A stretch of 64,000 bases of DNA from Patescibacteria group bacterium. Its GTDB lineage: Bacteria; Patescibacteriota; Microgenomatia; Levybacterales; UBA12049. Positions 1-24,037 of the stretch are shown here, one piece after another (within the stretch, counting starts at the first letter, position 1; each line of letters begins with the position of its first letter). The DNA is taken from contig JBBTXS010000001.1 of assembly GCA_038062115.1 (NCBI GenBank), positions 10,607 through 74,606 of the forward strand. The letters run 5' to 3'. The position numbers and the translations under genes were made by a program. The notes beneath the pieces were generated by a model. That model did no database searches. It saw only the letters and a program-made list of their open reading frames with translations, and was not told the DNA's origin.

Positions 1-701
1 GGCAAATGATACTGCGCACGATTGATCTTTTGGAGAACTTGAAGATTAGTCCTATAATTGTAGTAGTGGGGTTTGCGAAGAAATCAGTGACTGATCTTTT
101 GGGACAAAGAGTTGTCTTTGTGGATCAAAAGAAAAGGTTGGGTACTGCCCACGCTGTAAAATGTGCGTTAAAATATTTGCCTAGACATGTAACCGATGTT
201 CTAGTTTTAAATGGAGACGATTCGGCTTTTTACGAGGGGGAAACAATTATAAATCTGATTAAAGTTCACCAAAAGAAAAATACAGAGGTTACATTTCTAA
301 CTATTGAACTTGATAATCCATCCGGACTTGGTAGGATAATAAGGGACGATAAAGAACAACTTCTTGCGATTATCGAGGATAAAGATGCGTCTTTACAGCA
401 GAAAAAAATAGAGGAAATTAACCCAGGATGTTATTTGTTCAAGGTATCTTTTTTACGTAAATATTTAAGAAAAATTAAGAAGAGTAAAACAACAGACGAA
501 TACTATCTTACAAGACTTGTAGATATTGCTGCAGCAAATAATGAAAAGATAGAAACTTTAAGGGGAGGAAAAATCCCGTGGAGAGGGATAAATACGCCTT
601 TGGAATTAAAAGAAGCAGAAAGATTCTATTTTCAGCACTCCACCTCCGAGGAGTCGCTTCGCAACACCTCGGAGGTGACCGAATGGGCTCCTCCGAGGTG
701 A
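1..701 (+). CDS. Sugar-1-phosphate nucleotidylyltransferase domain protein (GlmU N-terminal-domain-like), probably 5'-partial at window edge
   Basis: ORF 6..701 has no in-frame stop before the window edge. It lacks the N-terminal glycine-rich loop expected for this fold and starts in the region equivalent to the first beta-alpha unit. LGTAHA and VLNGDD motifs are typical of NTP-transferase domains. The last ~21 codons (HSTSEESLRNTSEVTEWAPPR) are encoded by a palindromic repeat. Confidence 0.7.
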   Translation, partial: QMILRTIDLLENLKISPIIVVVGFAKKSVTDLLGQRVVFVDQKKRLGTAHAVKCALKYLPRHVTDVLVLNGDDSAFYEGETIINLIKVHQKKNTEVTFLTIELDNPSGLGRIIRDDKEQLLAIIEDKDASLQQKKIEEINPGCYLFKVSFLRKYLRKIKKSKTTDEYYLTRLVDIAAANNEKIETLRGGKIPWRGINTPLELKEAERFYFQHSTSEESLRNTSEVTEWAPPR

Positions 702-712
702 ACATCGGAGGA
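641..712. repeat. GC-rich double-hairpin palindromic element (MITE/REP-like)
   Basis: CACCTCCGAGG (641-651) pairs perfectly with CCTCGGAGGTG (667-677). TCCTCCG (689-695) pairs with CGGAGGA (706-712). The element is GC-rich in AT-rich DNA and sits between two ORFs. Confidence 0.6.
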
Positions 713-1374
713 TGATACTTAGAGTTAATTGTATGTACAGACAGTTTGAAAAAGAAAATTTCTTTGATTTATCAAATTTTGAGTTTAGGGACATTTTCGA
801 TAATGTAAATTTTGTCTGGGAAGCAATACCAAAGATTGAGAACTACATAAATTCCCTTTTTCAAAAAAGAATTCTTGTTGGGAATTATAAAGATAAAAAA
901 AATGTTTTCGTTGGGGAGGGTTCAATTGTTATGAGTGAGGCTCTAATCGATGGTCCTGCGATAATTGGGAAAAATTGTGTGATTGGACATGCTAGTTATT
1001 TAAGGCAAAATTGTTTATTTGGAGATAATGTGCAAATAGGTCATGGGTCGGAGATCAAAAATTCAATATTTTTAAATAACGCTAGGGCAGCGCACCTTAA
1101 TTATATTGGAGATAGCATTATTGGTAATAATGTCAACATTTCAGGAGGAGCAATGGTAGCAAATTACAGGTTGGATAAACAGCCGGTTGGTGTTCACGCT
1201 GGAAATCAATGGATTGAAACTGGTCTTCAAAAATTCGGCGCAATCATTGGAGATAGCTCAAATATTGGAGCAAACGCAGTTCTTAATCCAGGGACAATTT
1301 TAGAAAAAAAAACGATTGTTTATCCTTTAACTTCTGTAAAAGGAGTACACAAAAATAATGATACCATCAGATAA
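712..1374 (+). CDS. Left-handed beta-helix (hexapeptide-repeat) acyltransferase, GlmU C-terminal-domain-like
   Basis: The ORF shows repeated hexapeptide pattern (IGKNCVIGHASYL, GDNVQIGHGSEI, IGDSIIGNNVNISGG, IGDSSNIGANAVL). A GAGGTG SD-like sequence lies 11 nt upstream of ATG 712. ATG 733 is an alternative start. Confidence 0.75.
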   Translation: MILRVNCMYRQFEKENFFDLSNFEFRDIFDNVNFVWEAIPKIENYINSLFQKRILVGNYKDKKNVFVGEGSIVMSEALIDGPAIIGKNCVIGHASYLRQNCLFGDNVQIGHGSEIKNSIFLNNARAAHLNYIGDSIIGNNVNISGGAMVANYRLDKQPVGVHAGNQWIETGLQKFGAIIGDSSNIGANAVLNPGTILEKKTIVYPLTSVKGVHKNNDTIR

Positions 1375-2060: not shown

Positions 2061-2085
2061 CTACAAATCCACCCCAAGGGTGGAC
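2061..2085. repeat. 25-nt repeat containing a 7-bp hairpin (copy 1 of 2)
   Basis: CTACAAATCCACCCCAAGGGTGGAC is identical to 10604-10628. The stem is TCCACCC/GGGTGGA at 2068-2084. It lies 11 nt after a stop codon. Confidence 0.7.
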
Positions 2086-2159: not shown

Positions 2160-2588
2160 ATGTTTGATTCGTTTGCTATCAAATACCAAAAATTTGCTCC
2201 AGTTTTTTTACGTATAGGTTTAGCTTTATTATTTGTTCTATTTGGACTTCAAAAGTTATTGCATCCTAGTCAAACTACTGCTGAGATACAGTTGCTCACA
2301 AATTTCGAATTGGTAGATGCTGCGGCTTTAAATTTTTATTTGGGACTCCTTGAGCTTTTCGTTGCAGCATCTTTTTTACTTGGTTTCAAAGTAAGATTAT
2401 TTGCTCTAATTTCTTTTTTACTAGTTGCCATGTTCTTCCTTTCGTTTCTGAGTCGGTATGGCGTATCACTAAATCCAGATTTGTATCGCGATGTAGGATT
2501 GGTAGGGGCATCAATAGCATTATTCTTACTAGGAGCAGGACCTCTAAGCCTTGATAACCCTTCCAATAAAAAAGAAAGTAATGAATAA
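2160..2588 (+). CDS. DoxX-family membrane protein
   Basis: A small protein of four predicted TM helices. The N-terminal pattern FLRIGLALLFVLFGLQKL resembles DoxX/DoxD-like proteins. Confidence 0.55.
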   Translation: MFDSFAIKYQKFAPVFLRIGLALLFVLFGLQKLLHPSQTTAEIQLLTNFELVDAAALNFYLGLLELFVAASFLLGFKVRLFALISFLLVAMFFLSFLSRYGVSLNPDLYRDVGLVGASIALFLLGAGPLSLDNPSNKKESNE

Positions 2589-3060
2589 ATATCTTGGTTT
2601 AGCTTTGTTTAGTGTATTCTTACTGGCAAGTGGATTTATCTATCAGGCATACTATCGTCCCGCTAGTATTGAAAGGATTAAGTCTACGGGTAAAGCAGTA
2701 TTTATTAACATGCGGGTCATAAAGAATCATTGGAAGTGGGATCCTGATACAATAAAAGTTAAACCTGGAGATAAGATAGTCCTAAACATTTATAACGAAG
2801 ACACATATGACCATGGGTTTGCAATAGATGTATTCGGGGTTAATCGCAGGTTATTTCCCCAAACTACAACTGTGGTTGAATTTACGCCTTCTTTGGTTGG
2901 CAAATTTAATTTTTATTGTTCAGTGCCCTGCGGAGAGGGTCATTATGACCAAATTGGTACTCTTATTGTGGGAGACGGACATGTTAGATCAGGTATATAT
3001 CCTAATAAGAACTTTGCATGTAGTACGACTAATAAAATGGTGCATTCTATGTCATTCTGA
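2581..3060 (+). CDS. Membrane-anchored cupredoxin-like copper-binding domain protein
   Basis: An N-terminal TM anchor is followed by a pattern typical of cupredoxin_1-type domains found next to Cu-ATPases: WDPDTIKVKPGDKIVLNIYNEDTYDHGF ... FYCSVPCGEGHYDQIGTLIV. The preferred start is ATG 2581 (the ORF track gives 2551). The C-terminal tail runs into a repeat element. Confidence 0.65.
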   Translation: MNKYLGLALFSVFLLASGFIYQAYYRPASIERIKSTGKAVFINMRVIKNHWKWDPDTIKVKPGDKIVLNIYNEDTYDHGFAIDVFGVNRRLFPQTTTVVEFTPSLVGKFNFYCSVPCGEGHYDQIGTLIVGDGHVRSGIYPNKNFACSTTNKMVHSMSF

Positions 3061-3101
3061 ACTTGATTCAGAATCTAGATTCCCGCTTTTGCGGGAATGA
3101 C
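3051..3101. repeat. GTCAT...ATGAC palindromic MITE-like element (short, two hairpins)
   Basis: Sequence: GTCATTCTGAA-CTTGA-TTCAGAATC-TAG-ATTCCCGC-TTTT-GCGGGAATGAC. The termini GTCATTC and GAATGAC are inverted. It sits between the cupredoxin gene and copA and supplies a spurious ATG at 3097. Confidence 0.65.
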
Positions 3102-3114
3102 GAAGGGTGTTTTT

Positions 3115-5571
3115 ATGAAAGAAAAGCCCCAATTTACTCAAAAACTCTATAGAATTCAGGGAATGCACTGCGCTTCCTGTGCTGTTTTAATTAACACAGT
3201 TCTACAAAAACAAAAAGGAGTAGAGTCTGTAAATGCAAGTTTTGGAGCTGAAAAACTTTCTATTTCATTTGATCCAAATGTTATACCCGAGGAAAAAGTA
3301 TTGGGTTTTGGTAAATCTTTGGGATACTCTTTTGTGTCGGAGGAGTCAAGAACTGAGGATGAATTTAAAAAAGAAAGGGATGCTCATATCAGAGAGCTTA
3401 GAAATAGAACTATTGTAAGTTTTCTTCTTTCAAGCCCTATTATTGCATATTATATGGCAGTTCACATGTTTAATCTTAAGCATGTCCACGCAATAATGGT
3501 TGGAAGTTTATTTATAGATTTAAACTGGATTTATTTACTAATGACAATTCCAGTTCAATTTTGGGTGGGATGGATTTTTTATAGAAGCGCCTGGACGGCA
3601 TTTAAGGTTGGTTCAACCTCGATGGACACGCTTGTAGTTTTGGGAACGAGTGCTGCATTTTTTTATAGTCTTATTGGCTTTCTGTTTTCAACTACCTATG
3701 GAAAGCTACAAACACTCTGGATAGGACTTGATCATCCTTTTTGGGAGTCATCTGCTGCTTTAATGTCGTTTTTAATTATGGGCCGCTTCCTTGAAGCTGT
3801 GTCTCGTGGAAAAGTTTCTGAGGCAGTAAGTAAATTGTTGCAGCTTGCACCAGAAAAAGCAATTTTACTTAAAAACGGTGAGGAAAAAGAAATTCTGGCG
3901 AGCGACTTAAAAAAAGACGATATATTTATTGTTAAGCCTGGAAGTAAAATTCCAACAGATGGAATAATTATTAAAGGCGAATCGGCATTGGACGAAAAAA
4001 TAGTAACAGGAGAATCAATGCCAGTCAATAAAAAAGTAAACGACGAAGTAATTGGGGGTACAGTAAATTCGTATGGATTGCTTCACTGTAAAGCAACTAA
4101 AGTTGGAAGCGAGACTTTACTACACCAAATAGTTAGAATGGTTCGCGAGGCTCAAGCAACAAGAGCACCGCTTCAACGCGTTGCAGACTGGATATCCGAA
4201 CGATTTGTGCCAACAGTTATAGTTTTAAGCCTTATCTCCTTTAACTATTGGTATTTTATAAAAGCAGACGGTTTTACTCCATCGCTTCTTTTTATGGTTG
4301 CAGCACTTATTATTTCTTGTCCATGTGCTTTGGGATTAGCAACTCCTATTGCTACTATGGTTGGTACAGCAAAAGGCGCTGAGTCTGGAATATTAATTAA
4401 AGGCGGAGAGGCTTTAGAAAAAGCGCATAAGATTACAGCGGTTGCGTTCGATAAGACAGGAACTTTAACAAAGGGAGAACCAGCTGTGACAGACGTCATT
4501 GCAATTAATTCCTCTGTCATTGCGAGGAGCGAAGCGACGAAGCAATCTCACGAGATTGCCACGGGTTCTTCGAGCCCTCGCAATGACATATTGAGGCTTG
4601 CTGCAGTTGCCGAGAGAGGTTCGGAACACCCCCTCGCTCAAGCTGTAGTTAAAAAAGCAAAAGAACTAAATTTAGAAGTTCCGGAGCCTGAAAACTTTAA
4701 AACAATTTCAGGGATGGGAGTTTCATCAGACTATAAAGGGAAACAAATTATGGTTGGGAATCAGCTTTTTATGGAGAAAGAAAGCATCAATATAAACGAG
4801 ATTGCTTCTGAGGTAAATAGACTTAGAGCTGAGGCAAAAACTGTGGTCTATGTTGCGTATGATAAAAAAGTTATTGGATGTGTTGCCCTTGCCGATACGC
4901 TCAAGAAACATTCTATTGCTGCGATAAATGCTCTAAAGAAGAGAAAAAAAGAAATAATTATGATTACTGGCGATAACGAACAGACTGCTCATGCAATTGG
5001 AAAGCAGTTGGGAATAGACAAGGTTTATGCCAATGTGTTGCCTGAGAAAAAAGAAGAACTTATTGAGTCTATTAAGAAAGAGGGTAAGGTAGTTGCTTTT
5101 GTTGGGGATGGGATAAATGATTCGCCAGCACTGGCCAAGAGTGACTTGGGTATTGCTGTTGGGTCTGGTACTGATGTTGCAATAGAGACTGGAGAAATAA
5201 TTCTTGTTCGCGATGATCTTCGAGATGTGGTTACAGCGATTGATCTTTCACAAAAGACAATCTATAAAATCTGGCAAAACTTTTTCTGGGCTTTTGTTTA
5301 TAATATAGTTGCGATTCCTATTGCTGCAGGACTGCATCTGGTATTTACTCGACACAGTGGGATTCCGGCGGGCTGGGTAACTTACCTCGGAGATGTTTAT
5401 TCTCTGATTCCAGTTATTGGCAATGAGGTTTCTTCTATTTGGCTAAATTTGTCCCAATCTGCTTTAAGGCCGGAAATCGCCGGATTTGCCATGGCATTTT
5501 CATCAGTCTCGGTTGTCCTCAACTCCCTTCTCCTTCGCCTCTACAAAAAACCAAAATTCGCGGATTCTTGA
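3115..5571 (+). CDS. copA: Copper-translocating P1B-type ATPase
   Basis: The protein carries an N-terminal HMA domain (GMHCASCA), the CPC motif (SCPCALGLATP), DKTGTLT, the HP motif (SEHPLA), TGDN and GDGINDSPAL. An SD-like AAGGG precedes ATG 3115. The ORF-track start at 3097 lies inside the repeat. Confidence 0.95.
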   Translation: MKEKPQFTQKLYRIQGMHCASCAVLINTVLQKQKGVESVNASFGAEKLSISFDPNVIPEEKVLGFGKSLGYSFVSEESRTEDEFKKERDAHIRELRNRTIVSFLLSSPIIAYYMAVHMFNLKHVHAIMVGSLFIDLNWIYLLMTIPVQFWVGWIFYRSAWTAFKVGSTSMDTLVVLGTSAAFFYSLIGFLFSTTYGKLQTLWIGLDHPFWESSAALMSFLIMGRFLEAVSRGKVSEAVSKLLQLAPEKAILLKNGEEKEILASDLKKDDIFIVKPGSKIPTDGIIIKGESALDEKIVTGESMPVNKKVNDEVIGGTVNSYGLLHCKATKVGSETLLHQIVRMVREAQATRAPLQRVADWISERFVPTVIVLSLISFNYWYFIKADGFTPSLLFMVAALIISCPCALGLATPIATMVGTAKGAESGILIKGGEALEKAHKITAVAFDKTGTLTKGEPAVTDVIAINSSVIARSEATKQSHEIATGSSSPRNDILRLAAVAERGSEHPLAQAVVKKAKELNLEVPEPENFKTISGMGVSSDYKGKQIMVGNQLFMEKESININEIASEVNRLRAEAKTVVYVAYDKKVIGCVALADTLKKHSIAAINALKKRKKEIIMITGDNEQTAHAIGKQLGIDKVYANVLPEKKEELIESIKKEGKVVAFVGDGINDSPALAKSDLGIAVGSGTDVAIETGEIILVRDDLRDVVTAIDLSQKTIYKIWQNFFWAFVYNIVAIPIAAGLHLVFTRHSGIPAGWVTYLGDVYSLIPVIGNEVSSIWLNLSQSALRPEIAGFAMAFSSVSVVLNSLLLRLYKKPKFADS
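4516..4587. repeat. GTCAT...ATGAC palindromic MITE-like element inserted in frame in copA
   Basis: The element is 72 nt (24 codons) with perfect 12-bp terminal inverted repeats GTCATTGCGAGG / CCTCGCAATGAC. An internal hairpin is GCAATCTC-AC-GAGATTGC. It encodes VIARSEATKQSHEIATGSSSPRND. Confidence 0.8.
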
Positions 5572-5611
5572 CAACCATGAGTCACGCCGTGTAGGTTAAC
5601 TGTTTTGTAAC

Positions 5612-5986
5612 ATGATTTTAAAGTCTAAAGACCGAGGAAAGTTTTTATCGCTTTTGCTAGCATTAAGCTTCTTTGGAATATTAGCAAGCGCGCCACAAGC
5701 AGTCGACCCTGATGTGATGTCGAGATTCCATGGTATGTTACCTGTATGGTATAGGTTATGGGTGACAATATACCTAGTTTCACAAATTGTAGTTCTTATC
5801 GGAATATGGAAGCGGAAAAGGTTTGCCGTATACGCATTTTTCCTTTTGAGCGGGATTCAGGTAGTGCTTATTAGTACCGCATTGAAACCAATTTACGATT
5901 CACATATCATTGCTATTGCTGTCTTTGCAATGTGGCAGGGTCTTTGGGTATGGGCAATCAAGCGTAAATGGCATATCTTTATTTAA
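5612..5986 (+). CDS. Hypothetical small membrane protein
   Basis: The ORF has four predicted hydrophobic helices and no motif I recognise. Confidence 0.4.
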   Translation: MILKSKDRGKFLSLLLALSFFGILASAPQAVDPDVMSRFHGMLPVWYRLWVTIYLVSQIVVLIGIWKRKRFAVYAFFLLSGIQVVLISTALKPIYDSHIIAIAVFAMWQGLWVWAIKRKWHIFI

Positions 5987-6174
5987 TAATTATGCATCTT
6001 TTAATAGCTCCTAGGTTTTGGGTTCACTATAGAACTAAAATTAATTTTAGTAAACATAATATGAATTATAGATGTTGTGTTTAAATATCAAAAAGGGTTT
6101 CGCGCAGATTTTGCTGGAGCAAAAATTGTGATGTTGTGTAAAGTTCTATATCATTTGAAAGGAATTTAAAAAAT

Positions 6175-6621
6175 ATGAGTAGTGAAAAATTTACATTATT
6201 ACACGCAGCGGTTTACTTTATGCTTATTAAAGATGGCAAAATACTTCTTGTTAGACGTTTTAATACTGGTTGGCAAGATGGAAAATATAGCCTTATCGCA
6301 GGACATCTTGAGAGGAATGAGACAGTTAAACAGGCAATGATAAGAGAAGCAAAAGAAGAAGCAGGAATTAATCTTAACCCAAAGGATTTACATATTGTAC
6401 ATACCATGCATAGGAAGTCTAAGGATGACCTTGAATATATTGATTTTTTCCTAAGTTGCGATACATGGCAAGGGAAGCCTAGGATAACAGAGCATGATAA
6501 ATGTGACGACATGCAATGGTTTTCTCTTAAAAACCTTCCTGAAGATACATTACGACACATAAGAAAAGCAATAGAAAGCTATTCAAATAAGATTTCATTT
6601 TCCGAGTTGGGTTTTGAATAA
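6175..6621 (+). CDS. NUDIX hydrolase
   Basis: The Nudix box is GHLERNETVKQAMIREAKEEAGI (GX5EX7REUXEEXGU). Confidence 0.85.
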   Translation: MSSEKFTLLHAAVYFMLIKDGKILLVRRFNTGWQDGKYSLIAGHLERNETVKQAMIREAKEEAGINLNPKDLHIVHTMHRKSKDDLEYIDFFLSCDTWQGKPRITEHDKCDDMQWFSLKNLPEDTLRHIRKAIESYSNKISFSELGFE

Positions 6622-6626
6622 TTAAT

Positions 6627-7109
6627 ATGCAAAGAAATATAGCTGTAGCGCTTGAGTGTTTTGTTAAAAAGGATGGAAAATACTTAATGCTTCATAGGAG
6701 TAAGAATAAGAAAATAATGCCAGATGTCTGGATGGCGCCTGGAGGAAAGAGAGAATTTAATGAAAGTTTGTTTGAGGCTGCTAGACGAGAGATTAAAGAG
6801 GAGACAGGACTTGAAATTAAAAATCTTCGAATCAAAGCAACGGGTAATGCGTATCTTAAAGATTTAGATCAAGAACTATATTTTCATTTTATAGTTGGTG
6901 ATTACGCTGGGGGAAAGCTCAAACAAAACTCTGAAGACGGAGAATTTATGTGGTTAACGCCTAAAGAAATATCAAAACTTAACAATCTACTTTCGGAAAT
7001 TCGTGAAGTTATGCCTTATATTTTTACTAATGATGACAAGGTCATTTCTTACAAGGCAGTATACGAAAAAGGAAATAAAATGGTCGACTTCCAAATTGAA
7101 AAACCTTAA
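6627..7109 (+). CDS. NUDIX hydrolase (second, tandem)
   Basis: The Nudix box is PGGKREFNESLFEAARREIKEETGL. Confidence 0.85.
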   Translation: MQRNIAVALECFVKKDGKYLMLHRSKNKKIMPDVWMAPGGKREFNESLFEAARREIKEETGLEIKNLRIKATGNAYLKDLDQELYFHFIVGDYAGGKLKQNSEDGEFMWLTPKEISKLNNLLSEIREVMPYIFTNDDKVISYKAVYEKGNKMVDFQIEKP

Positions 7110-7321
7110 AACCTGAGTCGTGAAATCTTCTCAAACACACTTGCCTTTATATGTTTCATAAATGTCAATTGCGACAACAGCCATACGCAACCTATTCCTA
7201 ATCCGAGGGTTATCGTTTGTAAAACATTTTGGAAAAAGTAACAGTTATTCATGGTTCTAAAACAGATATTAGCAATCTTTAAATAGTTTATCAAGTATCA
7301 ATTTTTTTTATTTTTTGAGGG

Positions 7322-7354
7322 TTGACAAAGAGGATAAAAGAGTTCTACTATAAT
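7322..7354 (+). promoter_or_regulatory. Sigma70-like promoter candidate for copZ operon
   Basis: TTGACA lies at 7322-7327. The -10 candidates are TACTAT (7346-7351, 18-nt spacer) and TATAAT (7349-7354, 21-nt spacer). A T-rich tract lies upstream. The ATG at 7363 has no SD, so the transcript may be leaderless. Confidence 0.4.
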
Positions 7355-7362
7355 TATGTAAG

Positions 7363-7584
7363 ATGCCAATAATTACAAAAAAAGCTCTTAATATAGAAGG
7401 CATGCATTGCAATTCCTGCGCATCGGGGATTCAGCTGGTTTTGCAAAACACAGACGGCGTTTTGAATGCAACTGCCAGTTATGATTCCAAAAAAGGCGAA
7501 GTTGAGTTTGACGAGGAAAAAACGAATTTGGAGAACATTGTTAAGTCAATCGAGCAACTGGGATATAAGGCGACGCCGCAGTAA
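7363..7584 (+). CDS. copZ: Heavy-metal-associated (HMA) copper chaperone
   Basis: A 73-aa protein with the GMHCNSCA metal-binding motif and ferredoxin-like HMA length. Confidence 0.85.
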   Translation: MPIITKKALNIEGMHCNSCASGIQLVLQNTDGVLNATASYDSKKGEVEFDEEKTNLENIVKSIEQLGYKATPQ

Positions 7585-7593
7585 ATGCGCGTT

Positions 7594-7669
7594 GTCATGC
7601 TGAATTTATTTCAGCATCTTGAAATAAGTAAAGGACTGCATCTAGACTCTGAAACAAGTTCAGGGTGAC
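7594..7669. repeat. GTCAT...GTGAC palindromic MITE-like element
   Basis: The termini are GTCATGCTGAA (left) and TTCAGGGTGAC (right), matching 9 of 11 as inverted repeats. Hairpins are ATGCTGAA-TTTA-TTCAGCAT and CTGAA-ACAAG-TTCAG. It is intergenic. Confidence 0.65.
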
Positions 7670-7685
7670 ACAAAGAGGATAAGTT

Positions 7686-8000
7686 ATGAAGTCTTTATTA
7701 AGTTTTTTCTCAACCACTAGTTTGTTGTTATTAACGCTTGCGGAGCCTGCTTTTGCAAATGGAGACAGTCACCCACCAGGAACTCCACACACAGAGGAAG
7801 CAACAAGTATAGATCCCGTAATAGTTGTTGGTATTGCAATAGTTTTGGTAATTGGCGGTTTTATACTTTGGAAATTTGTTCTTCATGGTCCTAAATCATC
7901 TTTACCTAATCAATTATCCTCGTCTGAAAAAACGCCACCTGTTCAGGAAAAAAATGTTTCTCAGAGCAATCTGGGTGATAATCCTCCAAAGAATGGATAG
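7686..8000 (+). CDS. Signal-peptide plus single-TM anchored protein with short His/Pro-rich ectodomain
   Basis: The ORF has a signal-like N-terminus ending AFA-NG, then GDSHPPGTPHTEE, a TM helix and a low-complexity tail. An SD (AGAGGA) lies 7 nt upstream. Confidence 0.5.
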   Translation: MKSLLSFFSTTSLLLLTLAEPAFANGDSHPPGTPHTEEATSIDPVIVVGIAIVLVIGGFILWKFVLHGPKSSLPNQLSSSEKTPPVQEKNVSQSNLGDNPPKNG

Positions 8001-8002
8001 AT

Positions 8003-10072
8003 ATGGATGAGACAACTGCCAATGTCCCTGCGCAAGCTCCTGTAGAGAATAAAGTTCCTGTTGTTCCTGGAAAAAAACATCCACCTTTGTTGTTTCTTAT
8101 TCTGCTTTTCGGTTTAATAGGTATATTTATTTATGGGTTGAGGTTTGTATTTTCTTTAGGTAGCGGGGATGTAGGCTCTGTTCCTTTTCTTCTTTTTGAC
8201 TATACGGTTGGACTTACAATGATTTTTCTTCCCTGCACTCTGCCGCTTGCCTTTGTTATCGTGCCACTTGTGATGGGTAAGTCGTACCAGAAAGGAATTG
8301 GCATGGCTTTGGCATTTGGATTGGGGGTAACTATTACTCTTAGTTTCTATGGGGTGCTTATTGGATTGTTGGGTCAGGCGCTTGGAATCCACCAAGTTGA
8401 GACTGCAAAAAATATTTTGTATGCGGTAGCAGGTCTATTTGCAATTCTTTTTGCTCTGGGAGAGCTTAAGCTTATTCGTTTTGCAGCTCCTGTTTATGGG
8501 GGTGCTGTTCCACAATTTATCATGAAACAAAAAGATATTGCAAAAGCGTTATTTCTTGGTCTTTTTTTGGGAAATGTAGGAGTAGGCTGTCCGAATCCTC
8601 TTTTTAACGCAGTAATTATTCCTCAGATCATTGCTACAGGCGATGCTTTCCAAGGGTGGCTCATTATGTTTGTGCAGGCGCTTGGACGTATCACTCCACT
8701 TTTTATCCTTGCGTTTCTTGCAATTTTGGGGATCAATGCGACTCGATTTCTTGTTCTTCACAAAGATGCGGTTAGTAGGATTACAGCTTGGTCTACAATT
8801 TATATTGGTGGATTTTTGCTTACCCTTGGACTTTTTGGACACGATTGGTGGGTCATCTCGGGAATGCATACTTTTGTAGAGTTTGTGACTCAAGAAAACT
8901 TTGTCACAAATCTTCTTGGGAGCAAGGTCCAAGAACTTGGACATACTCACGGGATTCCAACTGGAGCAGGATTATTCGGCATGCCTATTGCTTTGGGAAC
9001 CCCATTTATCCTTTTTATCTGGATCTTTCCAATGGTTTGGTACTATCTGTTCAAAAAAAAGAGCATCATTACACTTCCTCCCGAGCAGCAAGCGTTTGAG
9101 AAAAGATATACACGTCTTATTGGCTGGTTTTTTGTAGTCGTGTCGCTTTGGCTCATAACGGTTTTTGGATATTTTCTTCCCCATATGTTTGCAGATCATT
9201 GGTCCAAAATGGGGCATGAGGGGGAGGAAATAGATCATATGATGAAAGAGAAGACAGTAGAAAAGCAAGATTTTCATGCAACACTTTCAAGCACTCCATC
9301 GGCAATTCAAGCTGCTAAACCATTTACACTTAAGGTTGTTCTGCATGATAAACGCGGCAGACCAGTTAACGATTTACAGATATCTCATGAAAGAATTTTG
9401 CACGTAATTTTGGTAAGCGAAGACATGGAAGAGTTTAAGCATGTTCATCCAGAAGATGCAAAAAATTATGTAGCAAAAACTGGACAGACTGAATTTGAAA
9501 TTCCTATAACTCTTTCAAAAGCCGGGCGTTACAGAGTTCTGGTTGATGGATCTAGAAAAGGAGTAGGGGAGGTATCCGATCTTGGGTGGCTTGAGGTTGG
9601 AATTGTCGGAGATAGCGTGGGAGAACCAGTTCTTATAAAGAAAGATCGTCGTCTAAATCGAATATTTGGAGAATATGATGTTTCACTAGTGCCGACTCCT
9701 CACAATGCTCTTAGATCAGGAGAGAAAACACAATTAAGCTATTTTATTAGAGATAGAGAAACTGGCAACCCAATCTTTGATATAGAACAATATCTTGGCG
9801 CTGACATGCATCTTGCGATTATGTCTATTGATTTATCTACTATTCTTCATACTCATGGAGCAAGATGGGAGCCAAAGTTGGGGCCAAATCAAGGTGTCGC
9901 GTTTCCAGAGATCCGAGCAAACTACACTTTTCCCTATCCAGGGCTTTGGAAAATCTACGGACAATTCCAGCATAAAGGCAAAGTTGTGACGACTGAGTTT
10001 ATGGTGGAGGTTGCGCCGGGCATAATGGATGCTCAAAACATGGCTCCGCATATGGATGACAATGGGCATTAG
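8003..10072 (+). CDS. Fusion protein: CcdA/DsbD-like thiol-disulfide transporter core plus two tandem His-motif beta-sandwich-like domains
   Basis: The CcdA-like signatures are FLPCTLPL and GVGCPNPLF in TM helices. The C-terminal ~270 aa contain two repeats of the pattern HxxLxS.D...F.H.H (ILHVILVSEDMEEFKHVHPED and MHLAIMSIDLSTILHTHG). Confidence 0.6.
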   Translation: MDETTANVPAQAPVENKVPVVPGKKHPPLLFLILLFGLIGIFIYGLRFVFSLGSGDVGSVPFLLFDYTVGLTMIFLPCTLPLAFVIVPLVMGKSYQKGIGMALAFGLGVTITLSFYGVLIGLLGQALGIHQVETAKNILYAVAGLFAILFALGELKLIRFAAPVYGGAVPQFIMKQKDIAKALFLGLFLGNVGVGCPNPLFNAVIIPQIIATGDAFQGWLIMFVQALGRITPLFILAFLAILGINATRFLVLHKDAVSRITAWSTIYIGGFLLTLGLFGHDWWVISGMHTFVEFVTQENFVTNLLGSKVQELGHTHGIPTGAGLFGMPIALGTPFILFIWIFPMVWYYLFKKKSIITLPPEQQAFEKRYTRLIGWFFVVVSLWLITVFGYFLPHMFADHWSKMGHEGEEIDHMMKEKTVEKQDFHATLSSTPSAIQAAKPFTLKVVLHDKRGRPVNDLQISHERILHVILVSEDMEEFKHVHPEDAKNYVAKTGQTEFEIPITLSKAGRYRVLVDGSRKGVGEVSDLGWLEVGIVGDSVGEPVLIKKDRRLNRIFGEYDVSLVPTPHNALRSGEKTQLSYFIRDRETGNPIFDIEQYLGADMHLAIMSIDLSTILHTHGARWEPKLGPNQGVAFPEIRANYTFPYPGLWKIYGQFQHKGKVVTTEFMVEVAPGIMDAQNMAPHMDDNGH

Positions 10073-10090
10073 TAACGTACCTTACGCACT

Positions 10091-10188
10091 GTCATCCCGA
10101 GCGAAGCCAGGTACCGTCTGGCACCTGGCGAAGCGAGGGATCTCCCGCAACTAGGGTGAGAGAGATTTCTCGACAAGCTCGAAATGAC
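10091..10188. repeat. GTCAT...ATGAC palindromic MITE-like element
   Basis: The element is 98 nt, running GTCATCCCGAGCGAAGC ... CTCGAAATGAC, with an internal stem CCAGGT/ACCTGG. It is GC-rich and intergenic. Confidence 0.65.
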
Positions 10189-10219
10189 AAAGGTTGCGTA
10201 ACATGAGTTAGTAATTATG

Positions 10220-10305
10220 TTATTCTTCGAGCGAGGCTGAAAGCCGAGTCGAGAAGTTCTACCTTCAAGATAGTTCTCGACTCACTTCGTTCGCTCGAAC
10301 AATAA
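10220..10305. repeat. Second-type palindromic MITE-like element
   Basis: The ~17-nt near-perfect terminal inverted repeats are TTATTCTTCGAGCGAGG and (as reverse complement) TTATTGTTCGAGCGAAC. An internal 10-bp stem pairs GAGTCGAGAA (10246-10255) with TTCTCGACTC (10274-10283). Confidence 0.65.
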
Positions 10306-10312
10306 AACTTAT

Positions 10313-10579
10313 ATGGGTAAGAATATTACTATTCAGCTTGTATCCACTCCAGGTTGTACTCATTGCGAGGAGGTACGAAAAGTACTGCATGAAGTGAAAT
10401 CGCAGTATCCGCAAATGCAGATACAAGAACTCGATGCAACAAATCCGGACGGATTAGAACTTGTCGCCAAGCATGGTATTTTGGCAAGCCCTGGAGTTAT
10501 CATTAACGGAGAGCTTTTCGCAACAGGAGGGCTTAATAAAGACAGTTTTATTAAAAAATTAGCCTCTCTAAAAAATTAA
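10313..10579 (+). CDS. Small thioredoxin/glutaredoxin-like protein (CxxC)
   Basis: An 88-aa protein with a PGCTHCEE active-site-like motif near the N-terminus, in the size class of single-domain thioredoxin-fold proteins. Confidence 0.7.
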   Translation: MGKNITIQLVSTPGCTHCEEVRKVLHEVKSQYPQMQIQELDATNPDGLELVAKHGILASPGVIINGELFATGGLNKDSFIKKLASLKN

Positions 10580-10603
10580 CCGCTCATTTCTCCGCAGGTG
10601 TAG

Positions 10604-10645
10604 CTACAAATCCACCCCAAGGGTGGACCGTCCCAAGTGGGGACG
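10604..10645. repeat. 25-nt repeat (copy 2 of 2) plus an adjacent second hairpin
   Basis: 10604-10628 is identical to 2061-2085. Hairpin 1 is at 10611-10627. Hairpin 2 is CGTCCC-AAGTG-GGGACG at 10629-10645. Confidence 0.7.
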
Positions 10646-12812: not shown

Positions 12813-12892
12813 GTCATTGCGAGCGTGAGCGAAGCAATCCCCTTCTTTTTGAGATTGCTTCGTCTCAGGCTTCGCCTGATCCTCGCAATGAC
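12813..12892. repeat. GTCAT...ATGAC palindromic MITE-like element
   Basis: The element is 80 nt with 11-bp perfect terminal inverted repeats GTCATTGCGAG / CTCGCAATGAC. It lies in the ftsW-murG spacer and is read through by the GTG-initiated ORF-track extension. Confidence 0.75.
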
Positions 12893-12914: not shown

Positions 12915-14069
12915 ATGAAAATAGTAATTGTTGGTGGTCATTTGGCTCCAGCGTTAGCGGCAATAGACAATTTACCTAAAGATACAAAACTTCTGTTTAT
13001 TGGAAGAAAATATACTTTTGAAGGAGACAAAGCTTTGTCTTTGGAGTATAGAGAGATTACTAAACGCAAGGTCCCGTTTACAAATGTCATAAGCGGAAGG
13101 CTTCAGAGAAGGCTCACTCGCCATACAATCCCTTCACTTATAAAAGTTCCATATGGATTCATTCAGTCTTTTTTTATCTTGCAAAAGTTTAAGCCAGATG
13201 TGTTTTTAGGTTTTGGTGGGTATTTATCTTTACCTCTTGGTTTAGCAGCTTTTATTTTAAGAATCCCGATTGTTATTCACGAGCAAACATTAGAAGCAGG
13301 TATTGCGAATAAGATTCTTTCGTTTTTTGCTAAAAAGATCTGTATTTCATGGGAATCATCAAGAAAATTTTTTCCAAAAAATAAAACTGTTCTTATTGGA
13401 AACCCGATACGAAAATTTTCTCTGTCATCCCGACCAAGCCCGAAGGGCGCGTGGAGGAATCTCGGAGATTCCTCGACTCCGTTTCACTTCGCTCGGAATG
13501 ACACCCCTATTATTTACATCACTGGTGGGAGTTCTGGCTCGCACTTTATAAATACACTGGTTGAGGGCTGTATCAAAGAGCTATTGGAAAAGTTCGTCAT
13601 TATTCACCAAACAGGAGATGCGCAAGAATACCGTGACTTTGACCGACTTAACAATCTTAGAGATAGTCTACCATCAAAATTAAAAGCAAGATACTTTCTG
13701 ATAAAATTTGTTGAACCGAAAGACGTTGGATCATGTTTACAAAAAGCGCATTTAGTAGTTTCACGCGCTGGTATAAATACTATAACAGAGCTTATTTTTT
13801 TAAAAAAGCCATCTTTGTTGATTCCTCTGCGTTATTCCCAAAATAACGAACAAATAAAGAATGCCCTTTTTTTAAAAAGCCTAGGGCTTGGGGAAGTTTT
13901 GGAACAAGGCCATTTAAGCTCGCAAAAGTTTTTGCAAAAAGTAATAGAGATGGTTAATAATATAAATAAGTATAAGATTAAAGATAAATCTAATGCTTTA
14001 ATCAATAAAAATGCTGCCCAAAAGATAATTGAAGTCATTCAATATGCTACAAAGAGCAAGAAAAACTAA
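12915..14069 (+). CDS. murG: UDP-GlcNAc:lipid I N-acetylglucosaminyltransferase
   Basis: MKIVIVGGHLAP, HEQT, GNPIR and TGGSSGS motifs of the GT28 MurG fold, plus dcw position, support the call. The start moves to ATG 12915 because the 12825 extension is repeat-encoded. Confidence 0.9.
   Translation: MKIVIVGGHLAPALAAIDNLPKDTKLLFIGRKYTFEGDKALSLEYREITKRKVPFTNVISGRLQRRLTRHTIPSLIKVPYGFIQSFFILQKFKPDVFLGFGGYLSLPLGLAAFILRIPIVIHEQTLEAGIANKILSFFAKKICISWESSRKFFPKNKTVLIGNPIRKFSLSSRPSPKGAWRNLGDSSTPFHFARNDTPIIYITGGSSGSHFINTLVEGCIKELLEKFVIIHQTGDAQEYRDFDRLNNLRDSLPSKLKARYFLIKFVEPKDVGSCLQKAHLVVSRAGINTITELIFLKKPSLLIPLRYSQNNEQIKNALFLKSLGLGEVLEQGHLSSQKFLQKVIEMVNNINKYKIKDKSNALINKNAAQKIIEVIQYATKSKKN
13424..13502. 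repeat. GTCAT...ATGAC palindromic MITE-like element embedded in frame in murG
   Basis: The element runs GTCATCCCGACC ... CTCGGAATGAC with an internal 10-bp palindrome GAGGAATCTC/GAGATTCCTC. It encodes roughly SSRPSPKGAWRNLGDSSTPFHFARND in the interdomain linker. Confidence 0.7.
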
Positions 14070-23965: not shown

Positions 23966-24037
23966 GGACTCGTAGCTCAGCGGTAGAGCGCTTCATTCAC
24001 ATTGAAGAAGTCAGAGGTTCGAATCCTCTCGGGTCCA
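23966..24037 (+). tRNA. tRNA-Val (anticodon CAC)
   Basis: I folded the cloverleaf by hand. The acceptor stem is GGACTCG/CGGGTCC (one G-U pair). The D arm is GCTC-AGCGGTA-GAGC. The anticodon stem CTTCA/TGAAG carries loop TTCACAT. The T arm is AGAGG-TTCGAAT-CCTCT. The discriminator is A and CCA is not encoded. Confidence 0.9.

What the first reader, a model, noticed from the sequence alone, without database searches (positions are those of the whole stretch)
2160..10579. Copper-handling plus thiol-redox gene island in a reduced genome
The contiguous genes encode:
- DoxX and a membrane-anchored cupredoxin with a CSVPCGEGH site.
- CopA, two NUDIX hydrolases and CopZ.
- A His/Pro-rich anchored protein.
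- A CcdA-like fusion protein.
- A CxxC thioredoxin-fold protein.

Pairing a DsbD/CcdA-type electron conduit and a thioredoxin with copper export is conceptually similar to the Scs (suppressor of copper sensitivity) systems of enterobacteria. The domain architecture here is different.

No CsoR or CopY-type regulator is visible. The segment is bracketed by the identical 25-nt motif and is rich in palindromic elements.
Basis: partly seen in the sequence, partly recalled or inferred. Interest (0 to 1): 0.55.

Follow-up and report, generated by a model that had tools for sequence, protein, structure and literature searches.

The report
Conserved copper and thiol-redox gene module
This stretch of a tiny-genome (Patescibacteria) bacterium carries a six-gene set, conserved across that group and seemingly undescribed, that couples copper export to a thioredoxin-fed membrane protein and a respiratory-type copper protein; in relatives the same membrane protein is fused to nitrite reductase or a copper oxidase.

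Summary
In detail: every gene call holds under HMMs, and the 25-nt repeat and palindromic elements are real.

Six genes form a core that is co-conserved across Patescibacteria. They are a small thioredoxin, DoxX, a divergent CcdA-like 9-TM protein, a membrane-anchored CuA-type cupredoxin, CopA and CopZ. In 30 well-flanked loci the cupredoxin is present in 29, CopA in 28, CopZ in 27 and the thioredoxin in 25.

The two NUDIX genes, the 124-aa membrane protein and the His/Pro protein are lineage-specific passengers. The 25-nt motif belongs to a dispersed REP-like element, not an island boundary.

The CcdA-like module keeps two invariant membrane cysteines and an invariant His/Glu outer loop. Here it carries two tandem Ig-like domains, each with a three-histidine site. 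Relatives carry a multicopper oxidase or a bona fide NirK in that position. The cupredoxin keeps all CuA ligands (axial Met or Gln).

Best reading: this is a module that builds, maintains and possibly feeds electrons to copper proteins on the cell surface. It is broader than a Scs-like detoxification system. It is a new variant of known kinds and is relevant to how CPR NirK obtains electrons.

The parts
2160..2588 (+). DoxX-family 4-TM membrane protein (core component)
   Evidence: Pfam DoxX 35.3 bits. DoxX or a divergent DoxX (hhalign 99.95%, E 1.2e-38) is present in 54 of 80 related loci, usually between the thioredoxin and the CcdA-like gene. In L001 it is fused in-frame to the cupredoxin.
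2581..3060 (+). Membrane-anchored CuA-type cupredoxin (core). One N-terminal TM helix, then a cupredoxin domain with H78, C113, C117 and H121, and Gln124 at the axial position.
   Evidence: Pfam Cupredoxin_1. NCBIfam best hit is the NosZ CuA domain at 1e-13. Best PDB hit is the Thermus ba3 subunit II CuA domain, 6pty, 7.7e-11. The four ligands are invariant in 71 of 71 sequences; the axial residue is Met in 37, Gln in 33 and His in 1. Present in 70 of 80 loci.
3097..5571 (+). CopA, a copper-translocating P1B-type ATPase with an N-terminal HMA domain (core)
   Evidence: TIGR01525 613 bits and TIGR01511 559 bits, both above cutoff. CPC and DKTGT motifs. Present in 73 of 80 loci.
4516..4587 (.). 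Palindromic MITE-like element inserted in-frame in copA. It adds 20 aa (SVIARSEATKQSHEIATGSS).
   Evidence: The insertion is absent from 7 CopA homologues. The terminal inverted repeat is GTCATTGCGAGG...CCTCGCAATGAC.
5612..5986 (+). 124-aa membrane ORF of no known family (passenger, not conserved)
   Evidence: No Pfam or NCBIfam hit. Homologues in 0 of 80 loci.
6175..7109 (+). Two tandem NUDIX hydrolase genes, 6175-6621 and 6627-7109 (passengers)
   Evidence: Pfam NUDIX 70.5 and 63.2 bits. NUDIX homologues occur in only 2 of 80 loci.
7363..7584 (+). CopZ-like HMA metallochaperone, MxCxxC motif (core)
   Evidence: Pfam HMA 63.7 bits. Present in 72 of 80 loci, and in 27 of 30 well-flanked loci as a separate small ORF.
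7686..8000 (+). 104-aa secreted and anchored His/Pro-rich protein (Levybacteria-specific accessory)
   Evidence: No family. Homologues occur only in L001-L003, always just upstream of the CcdA-like gene.
8003..9232 (+). CcdA/DsbD-like 9-TM module of the 689-aa protein (aa 1-410). It has invariant C78 (LPCTLP) and C196 (GCPxP), and an outer loop with invariant H280, H289, E293, E298, H314 and H316.
   Evidence: Pfam DsbD_TM 37.6 bits. Invariant columns in 93 sequences. AF2 model with pLDDT 85.8. It is a distinct small subfamily: 212 clusters at E<=1e-3 in 1.84 billion representatives.
9260..10027 (+). Two tandem Ig-like beta-sandwich ectodomains (aa 420-540 and 545-675) with no Cys. Each has a three-His site (H467/H480/H482 and H603/H616/H618), plus H462 and a C-terminal HxxxxxH tail.
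   Evidence: AF2 C-terminal model: pLDDT 88, pTM 0.86. The two domains are homologous: hhalign 99.3%, E 1.8e-20. Invariant His residues. The YtkA Pfam hit is weak, E 4.6e-4, below cutoff. Foldseek gives only generic Ig/FN3 matches.
10073..10312 (.). 240-nt spacer filled with palindromic element sequence, between the CcdA-like gene and the thioredoxin gene
   Evidence: Sequence. Element terminus at 10091. In L001 and L003 the spacer is about 80 nt or less.
10313..10579 (+). 88-aa thioredoxin-fold protein (CTHC), no signal peptide. Inferred to be the dedicated cytoplasmic electron donor (core).
   Evidence: Pfam Thioredoxin_3 40.7 bits. Present in 63 of 80 loci. CxxC is present in 60 of 64 sequences, and none has an N-terminal hydrophobic segment.
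2061..2085 (+). Partial copy (25 nt) of a dispersed REP-like hairpin element
10591..10628 (+). Full copy (about 38 nt) of the REP-like element: TCCGCAGGTG-N-AATCCACCCCAAGGGTGGAC
   Evidence: The same extended consensus occurs in most of 31 metagenome contigs. It is absent from L001-L080.

Best explanation
The segment holds one lineage's version of a conserved Patescibacterial module for supplying, assembling and keeping functional copper proteins on the outer face of the cell membrane. Copper efflux is built into it.

Proposed mechanism:
1. In the cytoplasm, CopZ hands Cu(I) to CopA, which pumps it out. (Function is inferred from family membership.)
2. A dedicated small cytoplasmic thioredoxin reduces the two membrane-embedded cysteines (C78 and C196) of a divergent CcdA-like 9-TM module, which carries reducing equivalents across the membrane. 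(Inferred from family, invariant residues and gene linkage.)
3. On the outer side, the module presents an invariant His/Glu loop and a covalently attached copper cassette. In this genome the cassette is two Ig-like domains, each with a three-His site. In relatives it is a multicopper oxidase or a NirK nitrite reductase.
4. Beside it sits a membrane-anchored CuA-type cupredoxin. Its CxxxC pair is the only conserved extracytoplasmic cysteine pair in the cluster. It is therefore the likeliest client to be kept reduced and then loaded with copper exported by CopA. This parallels TlpA/CcdA plus Sco/PCuAC/CtaK acting on oxidase subunit II.
5. DoxX is a conserved membrane partner of the cupredoxin with an unknown role.

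The net result in this organism is handling and tolerance of copper at the cell surface, together with a redox-competent copper centre.

The NUDIX genes, the 124-aa ORF and the His/Pro protein are add-ons. The flanking 25-nt repeats are REP-like elements.
For: Gene linkage:
- In 80 related loci, CopA is present in 73, CopZ in 72, the cupredoxin in 70, the thioredoxin in 63, and DoxX or DoxX-like in 54.
- The usual order is Trx-DoxX-CcdA-like-cupredoxin-CopA-CopZ on one strand, with overlapping stops and starts.
- In the 30 loci with enough flank, the counts are 29, 28, 27 and 25 for the cupredoxin, CopA, CopZ and the thioredoxin; all four occur together in 23.

CcdA-like module:
- DsbD_TM scores above the Pfam cutoff.
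- C78 and C196 are invariant in 93 sequences.
- The AF2 model and the charge distribution give an N-in, C-out topology, with the His/Glu loop and the C-terminal domains outside.
- The ectodomains contain no Cys.

Fusion partners are copper enzymes:
- Multicopper oxidase in 11 loci, and NirK in 4 (TIGR02376, 323 bits against a cutoff of 296).
- NirK lies 2 kb from the module in Ryanbacteria. It is fused but frameshifted in a 695-kb contig.

Cupredoxin:
- The CuA ligand set is invariant, with Met/Gln alternation at the axial position.
- The DoxX-cupredoxin fusion in L001 places the cupredoxin outside the membrane, provided the DoxX C-terminus is cytoplasmic.

Precedents from the literature:
- CcdA/TlpA keep CuA cysteines reduced, and CtaK (a YtkA domain with a His-rich tail) helps CuA assembly (PMC9145763, PMC13344008).
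- CopA/CopZ are needed to metallate a periplasmic multicopper oxidase (PMC8456105, title and abstract as listed; the paper itself was not read).
Against: - No extracytoplasmic thioredoxin-fold adaptor (ResA/TlpA/DsbD-gamma type) is encoded in any cluster. Known CcdA proteins use one, so direct reduction of a cupredoxin would be unprecedented.
- The positive-inside count for the cupredoxin anchor is ambiguous: 1.2 K+R before the helix against 2.0 after it.
- The YtkA similarity of the Ig-like domains is below threshold. Foldseek finds only generic Ig/FN3 folds, so copper binding by them rests on invariant histidines alone.
- No oxidase subunit I, NirK or multicopper oxidase is present in this 64-kb window. 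The purpose of the CuA centre in this organism is therefore unknown.
- No regulator was found, so copper responsiveness is untested.
Confidence: 0.5

Rival explanations
1. A minimal thiol-driven electron-transfer chain. NAD(P)H feeds thioredoxin, which reduces the CcdA-like dithiol. Electrons pass through copper on the His/Glu loop to the CuA cupredoxin and then to a terminal copper cassette. That cassette reduces nitrite (NirK), O2 (multicopper oxidase) or an unknown acceptor (the three-His Ig-like domains of this window). In this view the module supplies catalytic electrons, not only maintenance. CopA/CopZ serve mainly to metallate the chain.
For: - CuA centres are known only as electron-transfer sites, and all ligands are invariant here.
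- NirK needs a protein electron donor, and the TM module is covalently fused to NirK in 4 loci and linked to it in others.
- Cupredoxin-tethered NirKs exist in the PDB and match this cupredoxin (2dv6 and 6tfd).
- Danczak et al. note that CPR nirK genomes each carry a cupredoxin, but that electrons reach it 'by an unknown means' (PMC5581439).
- The redox potentials run downhill from thioredoxin to CuA to nitrite or O2 (established values, from my own knowledge).
Against: - No CcdA/DsbD protein is known to pass electrons to a metal centre.
- Converting a two-electron dithiol into one-electron copper chemistry is hypothetical.
- Most CPR NirKs are unfused, and at least one is unlinked to the module.
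- The window's cassette has no recognised catalytic fold.
- Multicopper oxidases normally take electrons from their substrates.
Confidence: 0.25
2. A pure copper-detoxification island of the Scs/DsbD type. CopZ/CopA remove cytoplasmic Cu(I). The thioredoxin and the CcdA-like protein repair envelope protein thiols oxidised by copper. The His-rich ectodomains and the cupredoxin simply sequester copper.
For: - CopA and CopZ are canonical efflux parts.
- DsbD (cutA2) and ScsB are classical copper-tolerance determinants (established knowledge).
- CueO/CopA-like multicopper oxidase cassettes in 11 loci fit surface Cu(I) detoxification.
- There are many invariant histidines on the outer face.
Against: - No periplasmic thioredoxin, DsbC or ScsC-like partner is present, and the ectodomains have no Cys, unlike ScsB/DsbD alpha domains.
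- NirK cassettes are not detoxification enzymes.
- A fully liganded CuA site is unnecessary for sequestration.
- No copper sensor gene is linked to the cluster.
Confidence: 0.13
3. A CupA-like arrangement. The cupredoxin faces the cytoplasm and chaperones or reduces copper for CopA. The thioredoxin re-reduces the cupredoxin's cysteines. The two cysteines of the CcdA-like module bind Cu(I), so that module acts as a copper transporter or insertase for its ectodomain rather than as an electron conduit.
For: - The cupredoxin gene is adjacent to copA in almost every locus, in both gene orders.
- S. pneumoniae CupA is a membrane-anchored cupredoxin with a two-Cys binuclear Cu(I) site next to copA, and its cysteines need an unknown reductant (PMC5646241).
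- The positive-inside rule is ambiguous for the anchor.
- The DsbD family belongs to a transporter superfamily that includes metal carriers (my own knowledge).
Against: - The CupA match is insignificant (E 0.63), whereas CuA domains of oxidases match at 1e-8 to 1e-11.
- Ba3 subunit II has the same architecture of one TM helix plus a CuA domain, and its domain is outside (established knowledge).
- A CopZ and an HMA domain on CopA already serve the cytoplasmic route.
- The DoxX-cupredoxin fusion predicts an outside location.
- The dedicated thioredoxin fits thiol-disulfide exchange with a CcdA-type protein.
Confidence: 0.08
4. A recently acquired mobile genomic island delimited by 25-nt direct repeats (att-like sites).
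For: Exact 25-nt direct repeats lie just outside the first and last genes. The left flank differs between the window and L001.
Against: - No integrase or transposase is present.
- The motif is part of a dispersed element found in 31 metagenome contigs, often singly, and is absent from all related loci.
- The Trx-MraY-FtsW-MurG junction is conserved in L001 at 78% protein identity.
- In four Parcubacteria loci, FtsW-MurG lie about 7 kb upstream of the cluster.
- GC content is no different from the adjacent dcw genes.
Confidence: 0.03

Closest known systems
CuA-site biogenesis machinery of cytochrome c oxidase: CcdA/TlpA reductant pathway plus Sco, PCuAC or CtaK(YtkA) copper chaperones, acting on subunit II
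   Same: - A thioredoxin-to-CcdA-type route across the membrane.
- An outer-face His-rich beta-sandwich domain with a C-terminal His tail, as in CtaK.
- A client with the H...CxxxCxxxH(x2)M/Q CuA motif and the single-TM architecture of ba3 subunit II.
- Copper arriving through a P1B ATPase.
   Different: - There is no oxidase subunit I, no Sco, no PCuAC and no TlpA/ResA-type adaptor.
- The CcdA-like module has three extra TM helices and an invariant His/Glu loop, and is fused to the putative chaperone domains.
- The YtkA match is below threshold.
- The host lacks cytochromes.
Scs (suppressor of copper sensitivity) and DsbD/CutA2 systems of Proteobacteria
   Same: A DsbD-family membrane reductant conduit is genetically tied to copper tolerance functions.
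   Different: - ScsB/DsbD carry Cys-containing Ig-like alpha domains and work with periplasmic thioredoxin-fold partners (ScsC, DsbC, DsbG).
- Here the Ig-like domains have no Cys and there is no such partner.
- The donor thioredoxin is encoded in the cluster, and the cluster also holds CopA, CopZ and a CuA cupredoxin.
S. pneumoniae copY-cupA-copA operon (CupA, a membrane-anchored cupredoxin chaperone)
   Same: A gene for a membrane-anchored cupredoxin with two Cys copper ligands lies immediately next to copA.
   Different: - There is no significant sequence match to CupA (E 0.63).
- The ligand set is CuA-type (2 His, 2 Cys, Met/Gln), not Cys2Met2.
- The cupredoxin is probably on the opposite side of the membrane.
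- CopZ is also present.
- There is no CopY.
CopZ-CopA-dependent maturation of the periplasmic multicopper oxidase CutO in Rhodobacter capsulatus (cutFOG)
   Same: An efflux ATPase and its chaperone supply copper to an extracytoplasmic copper enzyme encoded nearby. The multicopper oxidase cassettes in relatives of this cluster fit that logic.
   Different: There is no CutF or CutG. Here the oxidase is fused to a CcdA-like membrane module and is accompanied by a thioredoxin and a CuA cupredoxin.
Cupredoxin-tethered NirK nitrite reductases (e.g. Hyphomicrobium denitrificans, PDB 2dv6)
   Same: A cupredoxin acts as dedicated donor to NirK. The tethered cupredoxin domains match this cupredoxin at 5e-5 to 1e-4.
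   Different: - There the extra domain is a type-1 blue-copper domain fused to NirK.
- Here the cupredoxin is a separate CuA-type protein, and NirK (when present) is fused to the CcdA-like module.

Membership tests
P1B-1 copper ATPase (CopA) | Family HMMs above curated cutoffs; CPC transmembrane motif; DKTGT phosphorylation site; N-terminal MxCxxC HMA domain | tested here: met
   TIGR01525 613 bits (cutoff 346) and TIGR01511 559 bits (cutoff 397). SCPC, DKTGT and GMHCASC are visible in the translation.
CopZ-type HMA metallochaperone | Single HMA domain of about 70 aa with MxCxxC | tested here: met
   Pfam HMA 63.7 bits and GMHCNSC motif. The CopZ-specific NCBIfam models score below their cutoffs (53 against 91-95), so it is filed as an HMA chaperone, not as a CopZ equivalog.
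CuA-type cupredoxin domain (COX subunit II / NosZ C-terminal type) | Ligand set His, Cys-x3-Cys-x3-His, and an axial Met two residues further on, in a cupredoxin fold | tested here: met
   Alignment to Thermus ba3 CuA. H78, C113, C117 and H121 are invariant in 71 of 71 sequences. The axial position is Met in 37, Gln in 33 and His in 1; this window has Gln.
CuA-type cupredoxin domain (COX subunit II / NosZ C-terminal type) | Works as the electron entry site of a partner catalytic subunit (oxidase subunit I, the NosZ propeller, or qCuANOR) | tested here: not met
   No such partner is present in the window, and none is conserved in the 80 loci. NirK or multicopper oxidase cassettes are the only redox partners seen nearby.
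CuA-type cupredoxin domain (COX subunit II / NosZ C-terminal type) | Binds two copper ions as a mixed-valence purple centre | not testable with these tools
   Requires UV-vis and EPR measurements on purified protein.
CcdA/DsbD transmembrane thiol-disulfide transporter | DsbD_TM family match; one conserved Cys in each of two Pro-containing TM motifs within a 6-TM core | tested here: met
   PF02683 scores 37.6 bits (cutoff 27.1), and 17 of 22 members match. C78 (LPCTLP) and C196 (GCPxP) are invariant in 93 sequences. The helix pattern in the AF2 model agrees.
CcdA/DsbD transmembrane thiol-disulfide transporter | Cytoplasmic thioredoxin donor | tested here: inconclusive
   A signal-less CxxC thioredoxin-fold gene is linked in 63 of 80 loci. 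The interaction itself is inferred.
CcdA/DsbD transmembrane thiol-disulfide transporter | Extracytoplasmic thioredoxin-fold acceptor (ResA, CcsX, TlpA or DsbD-gamma) | tested here: not met
   None is conserved in the clusters. The fused ectodomains have no Cys. phmmer with the module does not retrieve canonical CcdA among 1.84 billion representatives. It is a divergent subfamily.
Scs system (ScsABCD) | ScsB with Cys-bearing N-terminal alpha domains, plus a periplasmic ScsC thioredoxin-like partner | tested here: not met
   The domain order and Cys content differ. No ScsC-like gene is present.
YtkA/CtaK copper chaperone domain (PF13115) | Pfam YtkA match above the gathering score | tested here: inconclusive
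   21.2 bits against a cutoff of 25.9, E 4.6e-4. Only 3 of 22 members match at E<0.01. Two homologues carry a precomputed PF13115 hit. The fold is a generic Ig-like sandwich.
DoxX family | PF07681 match above cutoff | tested here: met
   35.3 bits against 23.6. The divergent members in other loci are linked to it by hhalign, E 1.2e-38.
Mobile genomic island | Integrase or transposase; att-like direct repeats unique to the ends; an empty site in relatives; atypical composition | tested here: not met
   No recombinase is present. The repeat belongs to a dispersed family. The right junction is conserved in L001. GC content is similar to the neighbouring dcw genes.

The most novel reading that the evidence does not exclude
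Patescibacteria, which lack quinones and cytochromes, may use this module as a new kind of trans-membrane electron path. Cytoplasmic thioredoxin would reduce a CcdA-like dithiol. Electrons would then pass through copper bound on the invariant His/Glu loop to a CuA cupredoxin, and finally to a swappable terminal copper cassette. That cassette is NirK for nitrite, a multicopper oxidase for O2, or the novel three-His Ig-like pair found in this window for an unknown acceptor. This would explain how CPR NirK is supplied with electrons. It would also make the three-His Ig-like pair a previously unrecognised copper redox domain.
Probability: 0.25. Interest if true: 0.85.

Novelty: new variant of a known kind. 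Interest (0 to 1): 0.64.

Why it matters
CPR/Patescibacteria are thought to be fermentative symbionts with almost no redox machinery, so two things here are unexpected.
- A conserved six-gene investment in surface copper proteins.
- A CuA-type centre, otherwise known only from respiratory enzymes.

The physical fusion of a CcdA-like reductant conduit to NirK or to multicopper oxidases gives a concrete, testable candidate for a problem stated in the literature. Electrons reach the periplasmic cupredoxin and NirK of CPR bacteria 'by an unknown means' (PMC5581439).

The result also corrects a widespread database annotation. These proteins are labelled 'cytochrome c biogenesis protein CcdA' in organisms that have no cytochromes c.

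Finally, it defines a new family of three-His Ig-like ectodomains that probably bind copper.

Tried and rejected
1. The 25-nt repeats as att sites or island borders: rejected. The motif is absent from all 80 related loci. It is found in 31 unrelated metagenome contigs as part of a longer consensus, TCCGCAGGTG-N-AATCCACCCCAAGGGTGGAC. It is not a convincing terminator: there is no T-run, and the fold z-scores are -1.3 and -1.7.
2. A known RNA in the spacers: Rfam finds nothing except one tRNA at 23966.
3. A specific structural relative for the C-terminal domains: two Foldseek PDB searches, with the full-length and the C-terminal models, gave only generic tandem Ig/FN3 hits. Zcp/DUF4198 appeared among them at low TM-score. 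PDB profile searches found nothing meaningful.
4. Firm assignment of the C-terminal domains to YtkA failed; the match is below threshold.
5. CupA homology of the cupredoxin: insignificant.
6. A conserved regulator or further conserved genes: clustering of all ORFs in the loci found only the divergent DoxX and a few rare Met/His-rich proteins.
7. The promoter and terminator scan was no better than shuffles.
8. Whether most CPR NirKs are fused to the module: they are not; most are 375-435 aa and unfused.
9. An apparent variant lacking the module (L114) turned out to contain a frameshifted copy of it.
10. Literature searches for a prior description of this cluster found none. Only open-access papers were searched.

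Full report
**What is there**

The window comes from a Patescibacteria (CPR) genome. The 689-aa protein is 100% identical to NCBI 'AAB600_00115, Patescibacteria group bacterium' and 78% identical to a Candidatus Levybacteria protein. Between 2160 and 10579, ten ORFs lie on the + strand.
- DoxX
- a Cupredoxin_1 protein
- a copper P1B ATPase with an HMA domain and the CPC and DKTGT motifs
- two NUDIX hydrolases
- an HMA chaperone
- a 104-aa His/Pro-rich anchored protein with no family
- a 689-aa DsbD_TM protein
- a Thioredoxin_3 protein with CTHC

The flanks are ordinary cell-wall and division genes. Upstream are a split GlmU-like pair and a HAD hydrolase. Downstream are MraY, FtsW, MurG, FtsA and FtsZ.

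**Repeats**

The 25-nt motif is exact. It occurs only at 2061-2085 and 10604-10628, with zero expected by chance. It is nevertheless not an island boundary, for four reasons.
- The right-hand copy is part of a longer unit, TCCGCAGGTG-N-AATCCACCCCAAGGGTGGAC.
- That unit recurs, mostly singly and often near contig ends, in 31 metagenome contigs.
- It is absent from all 80 related loci, including the closest relative, L001.
- In L001 the thioredoxin gene still abuts mraY-ftsW-murG.

I file it as a REP-like dispersed hairpin.

A second repeat class has termini GTCATYSCGAG and the reverse complement. These occur six times against 0.03 expected, all between 4.5 and 13.5 kb. One copy sits in-frame inside copA and adds 20 residues that seven homologues lack. 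Another fills the 240-nt spacer before the thioredoxin gene.

**Co-conservation**

A scan of one genome per GTDB species found 194 relatives of the 689-aa protein. Apart from one contig binned as Gammaproteobacteria and a few labelled only 'bacterium', the 80 best are all labelled as Patescibacteria MAGs. They were fetched with flanks.

I searched their six-frame ORFs with the window's proteins:

| Gene | Loci with a homologue (of 80) |
|---|---|
| CopA | 73 |
| CopZ | 72 |
| Cupredoxin | 70 |
| Thioredoxin | 63 |
| DoxX | 29 |
| His/Pro protein | 3 |
| NUDIX | 2 |
| 124-aa ORF | 0 |

A further 25 loci have a divergent DoxX in the same slot (hhalign 99.95%, E 1.2e-38).

Among the 30 loci with at least 5-6 kb on both sides, the cupredoxin is present in 29, CopA in 28, CopZ in 27 and the thioredoxin in 25. 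All four occur together in 23.

The commonest order is Trx-DoxX-CcdA-like-cupredoxin-CopA-CopZ on one strand, with overlapping stop and start codons. Levybacteria, including this window, have the order DoxX-cupredoxin-CopA-CopZ-(His/Pro)-CcdA-like-Trx. No regulator or other gene is conserved alongside.

The core is therefore six genes. The NUDIX pair, the 124-aa ORF and the His/Pro protein are local additions.

**The 689-aa protein**

An alignment of 93 homologues shows these invariant residues:
- C78 in LPCTLP and C196 in GCPxP
- H280, H289, E293, E298, H314 and H316 in one loop
- H467, H480, H482, H603, H616 and H618 in the C-terminal part (H462 is conserved in at least 90% of the 93 sequences), which contains no cysteine

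AlphaFold (pLDDT 85.8) gives nine TM helices followed by two beta-sandwich domains. From the charge distribution I infer an N-in, C-out topology, with the His/Glu loop and both beta-sandwiches outside.

The two sandwiches are homologous duplicates (hhalign 99.3%, E 1.8e-20). Each carries an H...HxH triad. Modelled alone, they reach pLDDT 88 and pTM 0.86.

Foldseek finds only generic tandem Ig/FN3 folds. The Pfam YtkA match is below threshold.

The TM module is a small, distinct subfamily. phmmer against 1.84 billion representatives returns only 212 clusters at E<=1e-3, and 70 at <=1e-30.

**Variable cassette**

In the same gene position and the same cluster, the C-terminal cassette differs between lineages:

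| Cassette | Loci (of 80) |
|---|---|
| Three-His Ig-like pair (as in this window) | 62 |
| CueO/CopA-like multicopper oxidase | 11 |
| Bona fide NirK (TIGR02376, 323 bits against a cutoff of 296) | 4 |
| Short or truncated | 3 |

Unfused NirK or multicopper oxidase genes lie beside the module in L063, L005 and L071.

I looked up three unfused CPR NirKs.
- One lies 2 kb from a complete module.
- One is really a frameshifted fusion in a 695-kb contig.
- One is unlinked.

Most CPR NirKs are unfused.

**The cupredoxin**

Its best solved relatives are CuA domains of Thermus ba3 oxidase subunit II (7.7e-11 to 1.9e-8). NosZ CuA domains and nitrosocyanin follow. CupA is insignificant at E 0.63.

The four CuA ligands are invariant in 71 of 71 family members. 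The axial position alternates between Met (37) and Gln (33), which is the behaviour expected of a real ligand position.

The architecture is one N-terminal TM helix plus the domain, the same as ba3 subunit II. In L001, DoxX and the cupredoxin form one ORF. If the DoxX C-terminus is cytoplasmic, as its charges suggest, this places the cupredoxin outside. The positive-inside count for the anchor alone is ambiguous.

**Interpretation**

These points are shown directly:
- a conserved six-gene module
- a CcdA-family membrane module with two invariant cysteines
- fusion of that module to copper domains
- a fully liganded CuA-type cupredoxin
- a signal-less CxxC thioredoxin

These points are inferred:
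- CopZ and CopA deliver copper to the outer face.
- The thioredoxin feeds the CcdA-like dithiol.
- The reducing power serves the cupredoxin's CxxxC, which is the only conserved outer-face cysteine pair, and possibly copper on the His/Glu loop.
- The His-rich Ig-like domains bind copper.

Several precedents support this reading.
- TlpA/CcdA keep CuA cysteines reduced.
- CtaK (a YtkA domain with a His-rich tail) assists CuA assembly in Bacillus (PMC9145763, PMC13344008).
- CopA/CopZ-dependent metallation of a periplasmic multicopper oxidase has been reported (PMC8456105).

The NirK and multicopper oxidase cassettes argue that the module is about surface copper enzymes in general, not only detoxification. 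They also raise the bolder possibility that the module supplies catalytic electrons. That would answer the gap noted by Danczak et al., who wrote that electrons reach the CPR cupredoxin and NirK 'by an unknown means' (PMC5581439).

The main weaknesses are:
- the lack of any thioredoxin-fold adaptor on the outer face
- the unproven topology of the cupredoxin
- the unknown function of the three-His Ig-like pair and of DoxX
- the absence of any experiment

**Comparison and novelty**

The parts belong to known families. The system resembles CuA-biogenesis machinery and, more loosely, Scs/DsbD. It fails defining features of both: it has no Cys-bearing alpha domains, no ScsC/TlpA/ResA-type partner, no Sco or PCuAC, and no oxidase.

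Literature searches found no description of this cluster or of CcdA-like fusions to NirK or multicopper oxidase. I rate it a new variant of a known kind, with interest 0.64.

Noticed in passing
window 4516-4587 (inside copA, 3097-5571): A ~72-nt palindromic element (GTCATTGCGAGG...CCTCGCAATGAC) is inserted in-frame in copA, just after the DKTGT region. It adds 20 residues (SVIARSEATKQSHEIATGSS) that are absent from seven homologues. This resembles Rickettsia palindromic elements that invade coding sequence.
   Followed up: partly
window 12813-12892 and 13487-13503 (start and interior of murG), 10091-10150, 641-700: More copies or arms of the same palindromic element family lie at the 5' end of the murG ORF (encoding ...LRLLRLRLRLILAMT) and inside murG. 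GC-rich palindromes at 641-700 form the C-terminal tail of the first ORF. All six element termini in the 64-kb window lie between 4.5 and 13.5 kb.
   Followed up: partly
window 10591-10628 and 2061-2085; loci L081-L111: The 25-nt motif is part of a ~38-nt dispersed element (TCCGCAGGTG, a 7-9 nt variable spacer, then AATCCACCCCAAGGGTGGAC). It is found in 31 groundwater and other metagenome contigs, many from one sample (Ga0213870) and often close to contig ends. Its nature (REP, small-RNA end or protein-binding site) is unknown.
   Followed up: partly
L001 4531-5472: In the closest relative, DoxX and the CuA cupredoxin are read as one 313-aa ORF. This is either a natural fusion or a frame difference. 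In the window the two genes overlap by 8 nt in different frames.
   Followed up: partly
L041, L049, L061, L063, L069, L112/L113: In several genomes the CcdA-like TM module and the three-His Ig-like part are separate adjacent ORFs, split after about 360 aa. The two halves can apparently work as separate polypeptides, unless these are assembly errors.
   Followed up: no
L112 11149-11529, L115 11155-11535: A conserved 126-aa protein with no Pfam family immediately follows unfused CPR nirK genes in two unrelated contigs. It may be a NirK accessory protein.
   Followed up: no
L020 12036-12536 and four other loci: A secreted, Met/His-rich, C-terminally anchored protein (MMGSGTMGEMMTLMH...) sits next to the CcdA-like gene in five loci. 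It may be a counterpart of the window's His/Pro protein at 7686-8000.
   Followed up: no
window 24889-26606: A RhuM-family virulence-protein gene and a PD-(D/E)XK nuclease gene lie just downstream of the only tRNA in the window (23966-24037). This may be a small integrated element or a defence locus.
   Followed up: no
window 6-1374: GlmU-like functions are split into separate nucleotidyltransferase and hexapeptide-acetyltransferase ORFs. A palindromic-element-derived tail sits at the end of the first ORF.
   Followed up: no
L019, L023, L024, L040 (FtsW-MurG about 7 kb upstream of the thioredoxin gene); window and L001 (MraY-FtsW-MurG directly downstream): The copper module lies near the dcw cell-wall and division cluster in both Microgenomates-type and Parcubacteria-type genomes. 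This hints at old, vertically kept macro-synteny.
   Followed up: no
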